Part shown: positions 4,508 to 42,391 of the stretch, piece by piece
Layout: each line of letters starts with the position of its first letter
Numbering within the stretch: the stretch's first letter is position 1
Assembly: GCA_009914755.4 (NCBI GenBank)
Contig: CP068257.2
Location: forward strand, 27,584,001 to 27,648,000
Origin: the human T2T-CHM13v2.0 reference genome, Homo sapiens
Direction of reading: 5' to 3'
Length of the DNA stretch: 64,000 nucleotides
The notes under the pieces: generated by a model
The model's input: the letters and a program-made list of their open reading frames with translations, nothing else
What the model was told of the DNA's origin: nothing
The model's database searches: none
Program-made: the position numbers and the translations under genes

Positions 4508-5739
<1,232 letters not shown>

Positions 5740-6132: not shown

Positions 6133-6513
6133 TGATATGGTTTGGGTCTGTGTCCCCACCCAAATCTTACCTTGAATTATAATCTGAATTGTAATTCCCA
6201 CATGTTGAAGGAGGGAGCTAGTGGGAGATGATTGGATTATGGGGGCGGTTTCCACCATGCTGTACTCATGATAGTGAGTGAGTTCTCATGAGATCTGACG
6301 GTTTTATAAGTGGCAGTTTCCCCTGCGTGCTCCTCTCTTTCCTGCCACCGTGTAATACATACCTTGCTTCCCCTTCCCCTTCTGCCATGATTGTAAGTTT
6401 CCTGAGGCCTTTCCAGCCATGAGGAACTGTGAGTCAATTCAACCTCTTTTGTTTATAAATTACTCAGTCTCAGGTAGTATCTTTGTAGCACTGTGAGAAC
6501 GGACTAATATACA
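6133..6513 (+). mobile_element. THE1/MST-class ERVL-MaLR solo LTR
   Basis: tgatatggtttgggtctgtgtccccacccaaatc...gattatgggggcggtttccaccatgctg...ttctgccatgattgtaagtttcctgaggcctttccagccatgaggaactgtgagtcaattcaacctc...ggactaatataca: canonical THE1 start and end motifs. Confidence 0.8.
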
Positions 6514-8874: not shown

Positions 8875-9237
8875 TTTGCCTTAGTCTTTCAGGCTGCTAT
8901 AACAAAAATCCATAAACTTAGGTGGCTTATAAACAATAAACATTTGTTTCACACAGTTCTGGAGCCTGAGAAGTCCACGATCAAGATGCCAATACATTCA
9001 GTGTCTGGGGAGGGTCTATTTCTGGTTCATAGAAGACGTCCTCTAGCTGTGTCCTCACATGGTGGAAGGCTCAAGCTAGCTCTCTGAAGCCTCTTTTACA
9101 AGGGCACTCATCCAATTAATGAAGTCTCTGCCCTCATGACCTAATCACTCCACAAAAGGTCACACTTCCTAATATCATCATGTTGGGGGTTAGGATTTCA
9201 CCATATGAATTTTGGGGGACACAAACAGAACATAGCA
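8875..9237 (-). mobile_element. Older MaLR-type solo LTR (MLT1/MST-like), reverse orientation
   Basis: gctgctataacaaaaatccataaacttaggtggcttataaacaataaacatttgtttcacacagttctggagcctgagaagtccacgatcaag...ggttaggatttcaccatatgaattttgggggacacaaacagaacatagca has the same architecture as reverse-complement THE1 but is more diverged. Confidence 0.5.
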
Positions 9238-9295
9238 GAGGCCCTCTGCAGTGGTTGAGATAGAGAATAAACTCCCAGGCACATTTGCTCTTTCT

Positions 9296-13111: not shown

Positions 13112-13758
<647 letters not shown>

Positions 13759-14289: not shown

Positions 14290-14520
14290 TCTCCTCCCTG
14301 CTTAGGGAGACAGTGTCCCATAATTGTTAAGAGCACACCCTCTGACTCAAGCCATCTAGGTTCAAATCCTAGCCCTTCCCTTCTCCAGTTGCCGAACTCG
14401 AACAAGTATTGTAGCCTCTTCAAGCCCCATTTTTCATATCTGTAAAGCGGAGATCGTAACAAACTGTACATGTCGATGATGTCCACAGAGTTGGATCAAG
14501 GGTTACGAATCTGACAGCCC
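14290..14520 (+). mobile_element. MIR SINE (diverged)
   Basis: gttaagagcacaccctctgactcaagccatctaggttcaaatcctagccc...gccccatttttcatatctgtaaagcggagatcgtaacaa resembles the MIR core (..ggttcgaatcc..cctcagtttcctcatctgtaaaatgggga..). Confidence 0.45.
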
Positions 14521-14684
14521 AAACCTCCAGACTGGCTGTGCTATTATTTCAGTTATTCTGACATGGCTCTGATGCAATGTGGACGTCAACAAAGCATTAA
14601 AAGTGAGAGACAGATTAGTAAGCAACTCCCTAAGGGTGGATTTTTAAATATGCACTAAAATTGTGGAGAAGTTAATATACTATA

Positions 14685-15489
14685 TTAGTTCACTAGGGCT
14701 GCCATAAAAAAGTGCCAGAAGGACGCTAGGTGACTCAGAAAACAAAAATTTGTTTTCTCACAGTTCTGGAAGCTGTGAATCTAAGATCAATGTGTCAGCA
14801 GGTTGACTTCTGAGGCCCCTCTCCCTGGCTTGTAGATCTGTGACTTCAGATTGTCTTCCTTCTGTGTGTCTGTGTCCTAATCTTATAAGGACACCAGTCA
14901 GATTACATTAGGACCCATGCCAATAACCTCATTTTACCTTAATTACCTCTTTAAAGCCTTTATGTCTGTTAAAGCAAACTATAGCCTGAGAAGGACTCCC
15001 TACTTCTATATTTGAGTCCTTGCGGATGAACCGTAACCTAACTTAATAGGCAGATAAAATTGAAAACCTAACTTAGTAGTATGCACCTGTAACAATAGCT
15101 AAATCCTAGCCAATCCCAGCAGCCATATTTCAACCATTCATACACTGCTTAGTGCTCAAACTGTGTTCAAATAAGGCAAACGCCAACCTCTAACCAATCC
15201 AGCCGTTCTGTACCTCACTTCCAATTTCTGAACGTCATTTCTCTTTTTTTTTTTGGTCTATAAATCTTCCACCACATGGCTGCGCTGGAGTCTTTGTGAA
15301 TCTGCTGTGATTCTGGGGGCTGTCTGATTTGTGAAACGTTCATTGCTCAATTAAACTCCTTTAAATTTAAACCGACTGAAGTTTTTCTTTTATCATGTCC
15401 CAAAACAGGAACATTCTGAGGTACTAGAGGTTTGGAGTTCAACATATACATTTGGCGGAGGTTGCAGGAAGACAATTCAGCCCATAGCA
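14685..15489 (-). mobile_element. Older MaLR-type LTR (MLT1-like), split by a nested ~430-bp insertion
   Basis: Left part ..gggctgccataaaaaagtgccagaaggacgctaggtgactcagaaaacaaaaatttgttttctcacagttctggaagctgtgaatctaagatcaatgtgtcagcag...cttataaggacaccagtcagattacattaggacccatgccaataacctcattttaccttaattacctctttaaagcc; right part resumes at 15396 ..aacattctgaggtactagaggtttggagttcaacatatacatttggcggaggttgcaggaagacaattcagcccatagca. Confidence 0.5.
14967..15395 (+). mobile_element. Putative ERV1-type solo LTR (TG...CA ends, about 430 bp) nested in the MaLR LTR; carries CCAAT boxes, TATAAA and AATTAAA signals
   Basis: Begins tgttaaagc, ends cttttatca, flanked by tgtc on both sides (14963-14966 and 15396-15399), a 4-bp TSD typical of class I ERVs. 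Contains ccaatcc x2, ggtctataaatcttcc (TATA, ~15253) and cattgctcaattaaactcc (poly(A) signal, ~15345). The interrupted host LTR resumes immediately after. Confidence 0.35.
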
Positions 15490-15999
15490 TGTACCTACCT
15501 AAGGTCTTAACTGGTAAACAAACAAACAAAAAACCAACCTAGTTATAGTTTTAAATTTGTTTCTATTTTATTTCCCATGAGGTAATCTAAAAGAACCTGG
15601 GGAATCCAGGTGCTTTTCAAAGCAGTACTTGTATGGTGTTTCATCATTACCTCTCAGCGGGAGGGAAATGAAACTCAGACGGGCCCATTTGGTTTCTATG
15701 ATACCAGCTTTCCTCACCTTTCTTGGGGAGAGTGATTTTGAAACTATGGGCTACAAAAGACTTTTGGATTATGTGTGAGCTATGCTCTCTCTCTGGGACT
15801 CCTACTATGCTTTGTGATTGTGAAAATAAGTGATTCAAAATCTAAGCTGTTGGAACTCTAAATTATTTTGAGCCATAAGGAAATGTGAATTATGGGGCCT
15901 GAGTCACAAGACAGGCAGCTGTAAACTAGGCAGCTGTGAACTTTTTGTAATATTTTTGATTGTCTGAATTGTCTTTTCCCTTACCTACATTATTTTGTA

Positions 16000-32379: not shown

Positions 32380-32962
32380 GGCAGATTTGTACGATGATCC
32401 CTGCCTCCTGGTATTCATACCCGTGTGTAATCCCCTCCCCTTGAATGTGGGCTGGACCCAGTGATTTGCTTCTAATGAACTGAATACTGAAAAATTGATG
32501 AGATGTCACTTCTGCAATTAGATTACAAAAACTGAGACCTCCATCCTACTGGTACTCTGTTGCTCTCTCTCTCGTCCTCTCACTTGCTTGCTCTGCTAAA
32601 GCCACCTGCCATGTTGTGAGTTGCCCTGTGGAGAAACTCATGTGCCAAGAGAATGAGCAAGATCGCTAGCCAACAGCTGAGGAGGAACCGAGGTCATCAG
32701 TTCAACAGCCTGAAAGGAACTGAATCCTTCCGACAACCAAGTGAGTGAGCTTGGAAGCAGGTCTTACCCTAGTTGAGCCTTGAGATGACTGTGGCCCCAG
32801 TAGACACGTTGATTGCAGCCTTGTGAAACACCCATAGTCAGAGAACTCAGCTAAATCATGCCCTGATTCCTGACCCACAAAACTATGAGATAATAGGTGT
32901 GTGTTGTTTTAAGCCAATATGTTTTGGGGAAATTTGTTATGCAGCAATAATTAACTAACACA
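32380..32962 (+). mobile_element. LTR-like interspersed repeat (ERVL/MER-type), family not assigned
   Basis: Shares long motifs with 56440-56982 (..gagtgagc.tggaagcag..gatgactgtggcccc..cttgattgcagcc../..cttgactacaacctcatgagagac; cctgacccacaaaactatgagataataggtg.tgttgttttaagcc..tttgttatgcagcaataattaactaacaca). Ends ..aactaacaca, like the THE1 ..actaataca terminus. Confidence 0.35.
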
Positions 32963-42040: not shown

Positions 42041-42391
42041 TGCTGCTCTAACAGAATACCATAGATGGGATAATGTTTAAATGAACAGAAATTTATTTCT
42101 TACATATCTGGAGGCTGGGAAGTCCAAGATCAAGTGCTTGCATCTGATTGAAGGTCTTCTTGCTGTGTCTTCACAATAGTGAGGCCCAGGGAGAGAGAGA
42201 GAGAGAGAGAGAGACCTGAACTCACCATTCTATAATGATCACACTCCAGCAATATGACACTCATTAATCCATTCATTAGGGTAGAGCTCTCATGCCTAAT
42301 CACCTTTTAATGGTCCCCCTCTTAATACTGCTAAAATGGCAATTACATTTCAACATGAGTTTTGGAGGGGGTAAATATTCCAACCATAGCA
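42041..42391 (-). mobile_element. Older MaLR-type solo LTR (MLT1/MST-like) containing a (GA)16 microsatellite (42191-42222)
   Basis: tgctgctctaacagaataccatagatgggataatgtttaaatgaacagaaatttatttcttacatatctggaggctgggaagtccaagatcaagtgcttgcatctgattgaagg...gagagagagagagagagagagagagagac...ggagggggtaaatattccaaccatagca. Confidence 0.5.

What the first reader, a model, noticed from the sequence alone, without database searches (positions are those of the whole stretch)
14685..15489. Nested solo LTR with an intact-looking promoter/poly(A) cassette inside an older MaLR LTR
The MLT1-like LTR at 14685-15489 is split exactly at 14966/15396 by a 429-bp insert (14967-15395). The insert starts TGTT.. and ends ..TATCA, with the tetranucleotide TGTC on both flanks (a 4-bp TSD, the size made by class I ERVs). 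It contains two CCAAT motifs, a canonical TATAAA (ggtctataaatcttcc) and, about 90 bp downstream, cattgctcaattaaactcc (AATTAAA poly(A)-signal context). This is a typical U3-R-U5 layout in plus orientation. I could not assign the family from memory. If it is a known ERV1 LTR this is routine. If not, it is an uncharacterised LTR.
Basis: partly seen in the sequence, partly recalled or inferred. Interest (0 to 1): 0.5.

Follow-up and report, generated by a model that had tools for sequence, protein, structure and literature searches.

The report
Ordinary MER57-type solo retroviral LTR
The 429-bp segment is a leftover single LTR of an ancient primate endogenous retrovirus of the already catalogued MER57 (ERV1) group, inserted into an older MaLR repeat; it is a routine genomic fossil, not a new element.

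Summary
Window 14967-15395 (429 bp, TGTT...ATCA) is an insertion flanked by TGTC/TGTC. It splits an older MaLR (MLT1-like) LTR at 14681-15489.

One 18-mer scan of public metagenome contigs, which carry human host DNA, returned 42 related copies at 73-87% identity. Their ends coincide exactly with 14967 and 15395. Two other solo copies have 4-bp target duplications.

Copies that are still part of proviruses are:
- followed by GA plus TGGTGTCAGAAGTGGGAT, a tRNA-Leu primer-binding site;
- preceded by a polypurine tract and a degraded env. That env matches the published MER57 env consensus of Vargiu et al. 2016 (tblastn E = 2e-116).

That paper gives exactly this primer-binding site for its MER57 group and says the group's LTRs are the Repbase MER57 LTRs.

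The element is therefore a solo LTR of a known primate ERV1 family. It is about 10% diverged from a crude family consensus. It keeps the family's CCAAT boxes, TATA box and ATTAAA poly(A) signal.

I could not run Dfam/RepeatMasker, the orthologous empty-site test or any expression data, so the subfamily and any present-day activity are open. Interest is low.

The parts
14681..14966 (-). Left part of the older MaLR (MLT1-like) LTR, the host element. It holds the 3' portion of that LTR if the LTR lies on the minus strand.
   Evidence: It aligns at 77% to positions 3-309 of an MLT1 consensus recalled from memory, which is a lead only. It is colinear with a real second copy at window 8875-9245. CpG observed/expected is 0.12.
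14963..14966 (.). Left copy of the 4-bp target-site duplication, TGTC.
   Evidence: In the alignment the two TGTC copies fall on the same four columns of the uninterrupted MaLR copy and of the recalled consensus.
14967..15395 (+). Solo LTR of a MER57-group ERV1, 429 bp, TGTT...ATCA.
   Evidence: It is full length against 13 or more copies from metagenome contigs that share the same termini. It differs by 10.1% (K2P 0.11; 31 transitions, 12 transversions, 4 indel events) from a crude 432-bp family consensus. The window has no ERV internal sequence next to it.
14967..15282 (+). U3. Its 3' boundary is inferred, not mapped. It holds CCAAT boxes at 15110 and 15194, the decayed ETS-like core CACTTCC at 15216, and a T-run.
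   Evidence: Conservation among family copies: CCAAT_1 in 13/15, CCAAT_2 in 12/21 (3 further copies carry a deletion there), CACTTCCGAT as the commonest form of the ETS-like core. NF-Y, ELK1 and SRF motifs and NF-Y binding are reported for MER57 LTRs (PMC3480842; PMC12065363).
15259..15265 (+). TATA box, TATAAAT.
   Evidence: TATAAAT is found in 16 of 27 family copies that cover it, and CATAAAT in 6 more. This region was not part of the search seed.
15283..15375 (+). R region. Both boundaries are inferred. The start is placed about 25-30 bp after the TATA box at GCGCTGGAGTC. The end is placed about 15-25 nt after ATTAAA.
   Evidence: This is inference from standard spacing rules for RNA polymerase II promoters and poly(A) sites. 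It is the most conserved block of the family alignment. No transcript data were available.
15350..15355 (+). Poly(A) signal ATTAAA, within AATTAAA.
   Evidence: It is present in all 29 aligned copies, but it lies inside the 18-mer used to fish them, so that count is biased. A T-rich stretch, GTTTTTCTTTT, follows at 15381 and could be the downstream element.
15376..15395 (+). Short U5 (inferred), ending in the canonical ...CA.
   Evidence: Family copies end TTTTATCA (10) or TTTTAACA (9). In 5'-LTR copies this end is followed by GA plus the primer-binding site.
15396..15399 (.). Right copy of the 4-bp target-site duplication, TGTC.
15396..15489 (-). Right part of the same MaLR (MLT1-like) LTR. 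It ends ...ATTCAGCCCATAGCA.
   Evidence: 15395-15458 aligns at 80% to positions 305-368 of the recalled consensus. That range directly continues the left part, with a 5-nt overlap that corresponds to the duplication. It is colinear with the copy at 8875-9245.

Best explanation
A MER57-group endogenous gammaretrovirus-like provirus (ERV1, tRNA-Leu primer) integrated in the germ line of an ancestral primate. It landed inside a much older MaLR (MLT1-like) LTR, antisense to it, and integrase duplicated the 4-bp target TGTC.

Homologous recombination between the 5' and 3' LTRs later removed the internal region and left one 429-bp solo LTR.

The LTR has the usual U3-R-U5 layout. Its parts, in order, are:
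- CCAAT boxes and an ETS-like site;
- a TATA box;
- an R region of about 90 nt;
- an ATTAAA poly(A) signal with a T-rich downstream element;
- a very short U5 ending in CA.

Shown here: the insertion, its exact ends, the duplication, membership of a multi-copy LTR family, and that family's proviral context (primer-binding site, polypurine tract, MER57-type env).

Inferred: the recombination step, the U3/R/U5 boundaries, and an age of a few tens of million years.

Not known: whether this copy is transcriptionally active today.
For: **Insertion and flanks**
- The MaLR flanks are colinear with an uninterrupted in-window paralog and with the recalled consensus.
- tblastn with the published MER57 env finds no ERV internal sequence near the LTR in the window, so it is solo.

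**Family membership**
- 42 of the 61 contigs fished with one 18-mer hold copies at 73-87% identity. Many cover positions 1-429 exactly.
- Solo copies have 4-bp duplications: window TGTC, L034 TGGT, L045 GAAC. L023 matches at 3 of 4 positions.

**Proviral context of other copies**
- 5'-LTR copies are followed by GA plus TGGTGTCAGAAGTGGGATC (L057, L026, L048, L021, L036).
- 3'-LTR copies are preceded by ...CCAAAGGGAAGGCAT (L054, L048, L055 and the L030 cluster).

**Link to the MER57 name**
- Vargiu et al. 2016 list tggtgtcagaagtgggat as a perfect tRNA-Leu primer-binding site in chains of taxorder 10520.
- They define 10520 as 'MER57 ... [quoted passage not shown] PBS: L'.
- Their mer57b env consensus hits the sequence upstream of the 3' LTRs: L048 E = 2e-116, L055 4e-51, L052 3e-33, L054 3e-30, L002 2e-22.
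- Kojima 2018 pairs MER57-int and MER57A-int with the LTRs MER57A1 to MER57F.
- NF-Y, ELK1 and SRF motifs and NF-Y binding reported for MER57 LTRs fit the conserved CCAAT and CACTTCCG motifs.

**Age**
- Divergence from the crude consensus is 10%. Divergence between the two LTRs of the same MER57 provirus averages 16%. Both fit an old primate family.
Against: - No curated repeat library (Dfam or Repbase) could be searched. The name MER57 therefore rests on the proviral context of related copies and on a published classification, not on a direct alignment of this LTR to a MER57 consensus. The subfamily (A1 to F) is unassigned.
- Pfam found nothing in stop-masked translations of the internal regions. 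The env homology rests on the published consensus alone.
- Several aligned copies (L013, L014, L029) show no clean duplication.
- One apparent duplication (L052, AGAC) flanks an LTR that is still preceded by env-like sequence, so it is doubtful.
- The MLT1 identity and orientation of the host element rest on a consensus recalled from memory plus one in-window paralog.
- ERV families recombine. HARLEQUIN, for example, contains MER57I. An LTR attached to MER57-int could in principle carry another name.
Confidence: 0.85

Rival explanations
1. It is a solo LTR of a known ERV1 family other than MER57. One example would be another MER4-group or MER50-like LTR that became attached to MER57-like internal sequence by recombination.
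For: ERV1 families are mosaic, and MER57I segments occur in recombinants such as HARLEQUIN. No curated LTR consensus could be aligned. A Leu-type primer-binding site also occurs in at least one chain of another group and in MER65.
Against: At least five independent 5'-LTR copies abut the same Leu primer-binding site, and at least four independent 3'-LTR copies abut the same polypurine tract and MER57-type env. This is therefore the regular LTR of that provirus. The published group with this primer-binding site and env is said to carry MER57 LTRs. The MER65 LTR shown in the supplement starts tgagataactt... and is unrelated.
Confidence: 0.09
2. It is an uncharacterised LTR family that is absent from repeat libraries.
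For: Only that I could not query Dfam or Repbase directly.
Against: - The family has many copies in human-derived contigs: 42 hits from a single 18-mer seed.
- It has recognisable proviruses.
- Its primer-binding site and env are already tabulated under MER57 in a genome-wide HERV census.

Human repeat families of this copy number have been catalogued for decades (Kojima 2018).
Confidence: 0.02
3. It is a class III (ERVL or MaLR) LTR with a 5-bp duplication, ATGTC, and an LTR end of ...ATC.
For: The literal direct repeat is 5 bp, ATGTC/ATGTC. An AATTAAA poly(A) context close to the 3' end also occurs in MaLR LTRs such as THE1 (from recall).
Against: All family copies end ...CA. In L045 the fifth base does not match, so the duplication is 4 bp. 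The proviral copies carry an env gene related to MER57 env, and MER57 is classified as class I.
Confidence: 0.01
4. The 429 bp are a contiguous part of the MLT1-type LTR, with no insertion.
For: None found.
Against: The segment occurs with the same ends in many unrelated flanks. A second MaLR copy in the window runs across the junction without it.
Confidence: 0
5. Beyond being a fossil, this particular copy is an exapted regulatory element. It could be an NF-Y-bound promoter or enhancer, or an intronic poly(A) site, used by the host.
For: Both conserved CCAAT boxes, the TATA box, ATTAAA and the T-rich downstream element are intact. MER57 LTRs are reported as NF-Y-bound, often in open chromatin marked as promoter or enhancer, and MER57E3 copies regulate ZNF genes.
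Against: - Only 5-20% of MER copies are reported bound.
- This copy has lost the ETS-like CpG core and carries deletions next to the TATA box and near the 5' end.
- No ZNF-type ORF is visible in the window.
- No expression, chromatin or conservation data could be consulted.
Confidence: 0.1

Closest known systems
MER57 LTRs (Repbase/Dfam MER57A1, B1, B2, C1, C2, D, E1-E3, F) of the MER57-int / MER57A-int ERV1; the 'MER57' group, MER50like supergroup, of Vargiu et al. 2016
   Same: - Related copies of this LTR flank proviruses with the exact tRNA-Leu primer-binding site (TGGTGTCAGAAGTGGGAT) tabulated for that group, and with its env.
- Length is about 430 bp, with TG...CA ends and a 4-bp duplication.
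- CCAAT and ETS-like motifs match what is reported for MER57.
- Divergence is in the range of the published LTR-LTR divergence.
   Different: Nothing contradictory was found. The subfamily is unassigned. The aligned copies fall into at least two sequence types just downstream of the TATA box, and the window copy has the CTTCCACCACATGGCTGCGCTG type. Relative to the crude consensus it has a 5-bp deletion near the 5' end and a 3-bp deletion after the TATA box.
Solo LTRs of other primate ERV1 families that are nested in older repeats (for example LTR12/HERV9, MER41, MER4-group)
   Same: The same mechanism applies: integration with a 4-bp duplication followed by LTR-LTR recombination. The same U3-R-U5 logic applies, with CCAAT, TATA and poly(A) modules.
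   Different: The sequences are different. The MER57 group uses a tRNA-Leu primer-binding site, whereas most class I HERVs use Arg, His, Glu, Phe or Pro. By inference its poly(A) signal lies only about 45 bp from the LTR end, which gives a very short U5.
MaLR MLT1 LTRs (the host element at 14681-15489)
   Same: The flanks align at 77-80% to an MLT1-type consensus recalled from memory and are colinear with another copy in the window.
   Different: The flanks were not tested against a curated library. The insert itself is unrelated to MaLR.

Membership tests
Solo LTR of an endogenous retrovirus | Terminal TG...CA and a short target-site duplication at the exact ends | tested here: met
   The insert runs TGTT...ATCA and has TGTC on both sides. 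The ends coincide with the ends of 13 or more full-length family copies.
Solo LTR of an endogenous retrovirus | Member of a dispersed multi-copy family with different flanks at each locus | tested here: met
   42 contigs, which fall into about 26 distinct loci after clustering.
Solo LTR of an endogenous retrovirus | No proviral internal sequence on either side; the same host sequence continues across the insertion | tested here: met
   Both flanks belong to one MaLR LTR. There is no primer-binding site after 15395 and no env-like hit nearby.
ERV1 / class I (gamma-like) ERV | 4-bp target-site duplication | tested here: met
   Window TGTC, L034 TGGT, L045 GAAC. The fifth base mismatches in L045. 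L013, L014 and L029 have no clean duplication.
ERV1 / class I (gamma-like) ERV | Proviral copies encode a gamma-type env and are placed in class I by protein similarity | tested here: met
   tblastn of the mer57b env consensus from the class I census of Vargiu et al. gives E = 2e-116 on L048. Pfam on stop-masked frames gave no hit, so this support rests on the published consensus.
ERV1 / class I (gamma-like) ERV | Pol (RT) phylogeny places it within class I | not tested
   The contigs held only env-proximal and leader sequence.
MER57 (Repbase/Dfam LTR family) | The LTR bounds MER57-int proviruses | tested here: met
   LTR copies homologous to the window insert lie directly after a polypurine tract and MER57-type env, and directly before the primer-binding site. 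Vargiu et al. state 'Its LTRs are MER57'. The Kojima 2018 table pairs the names.
MER57 (Repbase/Dfam LTR family) | tRNA-Leu primer-binding site TGGTGTCAGAAGTGGGAT | tested here: met
   It is found 2 nt after the LTR in L057, L026, L048 and L021, and with a small deletion in L036. It is identical to the primer-binding site listed for taxorder 10520 chains.
MER57 (Repbase/Dfam LTR family) | Significant full-length nucleotide match to a curated MER57 LTR consensus or HMM | not testable with these tools
   No Dfam, Repbase or RepeatMasker was available. Supplements with MER57E3 guide sequences are not held.
MER57 (Repbase/Dfam LTR family) | Reported motif content: CCAAT (NF-Y) together with ETS/ELK1-type sites | tested here: met
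   Two conserved CCAATC boxes and CACTTCCG are seen in the family. In the window copy the latter has decayed to CACTTCCA. This is soft evidence only.
MaLR MLT1 LTR (host element) | Similarity to a curated MLT1 consensus | not testable with these tools
   Only a consensus recalled from memory was used: 77% over 311 columns and 80% over 64 columns. Scans of genome contigs and viral contigs for an MLT1 18-mer found no mammalian copies.
MaLR MLT1 LTR (host element) | The two flanks are adjacent parts of one element | tested here: met
   They are colinear with the uninterrupted paralog at window 8875-9245. Both TGTC copies fall on the same four alignment columns.

The most novel reading that the evidence does not exclude
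This particular MER57-type solo LTR, which keeps its two NF-Y boxes, TATA box and ATTAAA signal, might be used by the host. It could act as a cell-type-specific promoter or enhancer, or as a premature poly(A) site for a plus-strand transcript that runs through it. Nothing here tests that possibility, and it would only add one more locus to a phenomenon already documented for MER57 LTRs.
Probability: 0.1. Interest if true: 0.2.

Novelty: already known. Interest (0 to 1): 0.06.

Why it matters
It matters little. Nested solo LTRs of catalogued primate ERV1 families occur by the thousands, and this one fits the MER57 group in every feature that could be tested. Two small points have some use:

- It is a textbook case of nested insertion. 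A younger ERV1 LTR (CpG observed/expected 0.51) sits inside an older MaLR (0.12) with a clean 4-bp duplication, so it can be used for relative dating.
- MER57 LTRs are reported NF-Y-bound regulatory elements, so anyone studying the neighbouring genes might check this copy in CAGE or ChIP data.

Tried and rejected
**Searches that found nothing useful**
- blastn of the insert against the rest of the window found no second copy.
- Rfam over the whole window gave no hits.
- Scans of viral contigs with two LTR seeds and one MLT1 seed gave nothing.
- A genome-contig scan for an MLT1 18-mer gave one chance hit in a bacterial MAG. Uninterrupted MLT1 copies therefore had to come from the window itself.
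- blastn of the joined MaLR flanks against the 61 fetched loci gave nothing.
- Pfam on stop-masked three-frame translations of the proviral internal regions gave no families. The env link was made instead with the consensus published in the supplement of PMC4724089.
- An attempt to link the LTR to the name MER57 at the nucleotide level, through published MER57E3 guide RNAs, failed because the supplements are not held.

**Readings considered and rejected**
- A 5-bp duplication with a class III LTR, rejected on the family ends and env.
- The segment being part of MLT1.
- The LTR being a 5' or 3' LTR of a provirus still present in the window.

**Evidence not relied on**
- L052's AGAC/AGAC was first counted as a target duplication. 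I then set it aside because env-like sequence precedes that LTR.
- Consensus sequences recalled from memory (Alu, MIR, MLT1) were used only as leads to locate real copies.

Full report
**Setting.** The window is primate DNA. A recalled Alu consensus finds more than 25 Alu copies at 72-91% identity, and MIR fragments are also present. Rfam finds nothing.

**The observation**
- Reading 14300-15900 and checking coordinates confirms a 429-bp segment at 14967-15395. It starts TGTTAAAG and ends TTTTATCA.
- TGTC lies immediately to the left (14963-14966) and to the right (15396-15399).
- TATAAA is at 15259 and ATTAAA (in AATTAAA) at 15350, 91 bp downstream. A T-rich stretch, GTTTTTCTTTT, follows at 15381.
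- CCAAT occurs three times (15110, 15194, 15221), not twice.
- The literal direct repeat is 5 bp (ATGTC) if the last A of the insert is counted. This ambiguity is settled below.
- The insert has no second copy in the window.

**The insert is a repeat family with exactly these ends**
- A single scan of public metagenome contigs with an 18-mer from the putative R region (TTGCTCAATTAAACTCCT) returned 61 contigs.
- blastn shows that 42 of them contain copies of the insert at 73-87% identity. Many cover positions 1-429.
- Several contigs are labelled human skin or gut metagenome and contain Alu sequence, so they are host DNA.
- Clustering gives about 26 distinct loci.
- In a MAFFT alignment of the window copy with 29 copies, the family begins TGTTAAAG (9 of 13 copies that reach the 5' end). 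It ends TTTTATCA or TTTTAACA (19 of 29).
Because every copy ends in CA, the ambiguous A belongs to the LTR and the duplication in the window is 4 bp.

**Target duplications elsewhere**
- Two other solo copies with both flanks available show 4-bp duplications: L034 TGGT/TGGT and L045 GAAC/GAAC. In L045 the fifth base mismatches.
- L023 has 3 of 4 positions matching.
- L013, L014 and L029 show none.
- L052 has AGAC on both sides but is preceded by env-like sequence, so I do not count it.

**Proviral context identifies the class and the family**
- Copies that are 5' LTRs are followed by GA plus TGGTGTCAGAAGTGGGATC (L057, L026, L048, L021; L036 has a small deletion).
- Copies that are 3' LTRs are preceded by a purine tract...CCAAAGGGAAGGCAT (L054, L048, L055 and a 13-contig cluster).
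- In the supplement of Vargiu et al. 2016 (PMC4724089), tggtgtcagaagtgggat is a perfect-score tRNA-Leu primer-binding site. It is found in chains of taxorder 10520.
- The same supplement defines 10520 as 'MER57 ... [quoted passage not shown] PBS: L'.
- I took the paper's mer57b env consensus and ran tblastn against the contigs. It matches the sequence just upstream of the 3' LTRs: L048 E = 2e-116, L055 4e-51, L052 3e-33, L054 3e-30, L002 2e-22, L010 3e-21.
- Kojima 2018 (PMC5753468) pairs MER57-int and MER57A-int with the LTRs MER57A1, B1, B2, C1, C2, D, E1-E3 and F.
- Pfam on stop-masked translations was negative, so the env link rests on the published consensus.
- The LTR is thus the regular LTR of MER57-type proviruses, a class I (gamma-like) primate ERV.
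- I could not align it to a curated MER57 consensus, and the subfamily is open.

**The host element**
- An MLT1-type consensus recalled from memory (a lead, not a test) aligns to 14683-14966 at positions 3-309 (77%). It aligns to 15395-15458 at positions 305-368 (80%). The two flanks therefore abut, with an overlap that equals the duplication.
- The same query revealed a real second copy at window 8875-9245.
- In a four-way alignment that copy runs uninterrupted across the junction, and both TGTC copies fall on the same four columns.
- This is the in-window equivalent of the empty-site test. The true orthologous test could not be run.
- CpG observed/expected is 0.51 in the insert and 0.12 in the flanks, as expected for a younger element inside an older one.
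- Scans for more MLT1 copies in genome contigs and viral contigs found none.

**Anatomy and state of this copy**
- Against a crude 432-bp consensus of the other copies, the window LTR differs at 43 of 424 aligned sites (10.1%; K2P 0.11; 31 transitions, 12 transversions). It has 4 indel events, including a 5-bp deletion near the 5' end and a 3-bp deletion just after the TATA box.
- Published divergence between the 5' and 3' LTRs of MER57 proviruses averages 16%.
- Both figures point to an integration some tens of million years ago. That date is inferred, and the consensus mixes at least two subtypes.
- Conservation among copies, in regions outside the search seed:
  - TATAAAT in 16 of 27 copies, plus CATAAAT in 6;
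  - CCAAT_1 in 13 of 15;
  - CCAAT_2 in 12 of 21 (3 more have a deletion there);
  - an ETS-like CACTTCCGAT as the commonest form at 15216.
- In the window that ETS-like site is CACTTCCAAT, a CpG decay that creates the third CCAAT.
- The poly(A) signal is present in all copies, but it lies in the seed, so that count is biased.
- The U3/R/U5 boundaries given in the parts list are inferred from standard TATA-to-start and signal-to-cleavage spacing. They imply an R of about 90 nt and an unusually short U5 of about 20 nt.

**What is known about the family**
- MER57 LTRs are reported to carry co-occurring SRF, ELK1 and NF-Y motifs (PMC3480842).
- They are bound by NF-Y together with TALE factors, often in promoter or enhancer chromatin (PMC12065363).
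- The MER57E3 subfamily regulates neighbouring ZNF genes (PMC9122532; PMC12947407).
- The motif content of the present family fits these reports.
- Whether this copy is active cannot be decided here. No ZNF-like ORFs are seen in the window.

**Verdict**
- The element belongs to an already catalogued family, the MER57 group.
- Novelty is 'already known', and interest is low.

Noticed in passing
window 4700-5510 (+): A GAPDH processed pseudogene. ORF 5081-5506 hits Pfam Gp_dh_C (E = 2e-15), and neighbouring frames read GAPDH-like peptide with frameshifts.
   Followed up: partly
window 8875-9245: A second MaLR (MLT1-like) LTR in the same orientation as the split one. It is uninterrupted across the point where the MER57-type LTR inserted in the other copy. 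Further MaLR fragments lie at 42042-42134 and 32878-32962.
   Followed up: partly
loci L002, L003, L004, L006, L008, L009, L010, L019, L030, L043, L049, L051, L058: Thirteen metagenome contigs from different studies are 97-99% identical over about 5 kb, including non-LTR flank. Where assembler coverage is given in the contig name (8 of the 13), it ranges from about 3x to 15x, against about 1-2x for other host contigs. This looks like a multi-copy (segmentally duplicated) host segment. It carries a truncated MER57-type provirus end whose 3' LTR has a 15-bp deletion. MER57E3 copies are reported to have spread with ZNF gene duplications, but I did not test whether this is such a case.
   Followed up: no
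L002 1414-2147: A minisatellite of a 35-bp unit repeated 21 times, lying between the env remnant and the 3' LTR of the MER57-type provirus. A shorter version is in L010.
   Followed up: no
L048 1686-2099: One LTR copy has the polypurine tract and env on its left and the tRNA-Leu primer-binding site on its right. It is either a tandem provirus sharing one LTR or an assembly collapse of the 5' and 3' LTRs.
   Followed up: no
window 6240-6410 (-): This region matches the C-terminal tail (residues 476-530) of the published mer57b env consensus (E = 2.5e-5). That tail reads like a translated MaLR (THE1/MST-type) insertion in the published chain rather than env, so the hit probably marks another MaLR fragment in the window.
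   Followed up: no
window 14340-14460: A MIR-like SINE fragment lies just upstream of the MaLR LTR, and an Alu lies at 13474-13758. The neighbourhood of the finding is a patchwork of interspersed repeats with no evident exon.
   Followed up: no
metagenome scan: A single 18-mer from a human LTR retrieved 42 host-derived contigs from public metagenome assemblies. The same collection did not contain the window's own locus. Host DNA in these assemblies is plentiful but patchy. 19 of the 61 hits were unrelated chance matches.
   Followed up: partly
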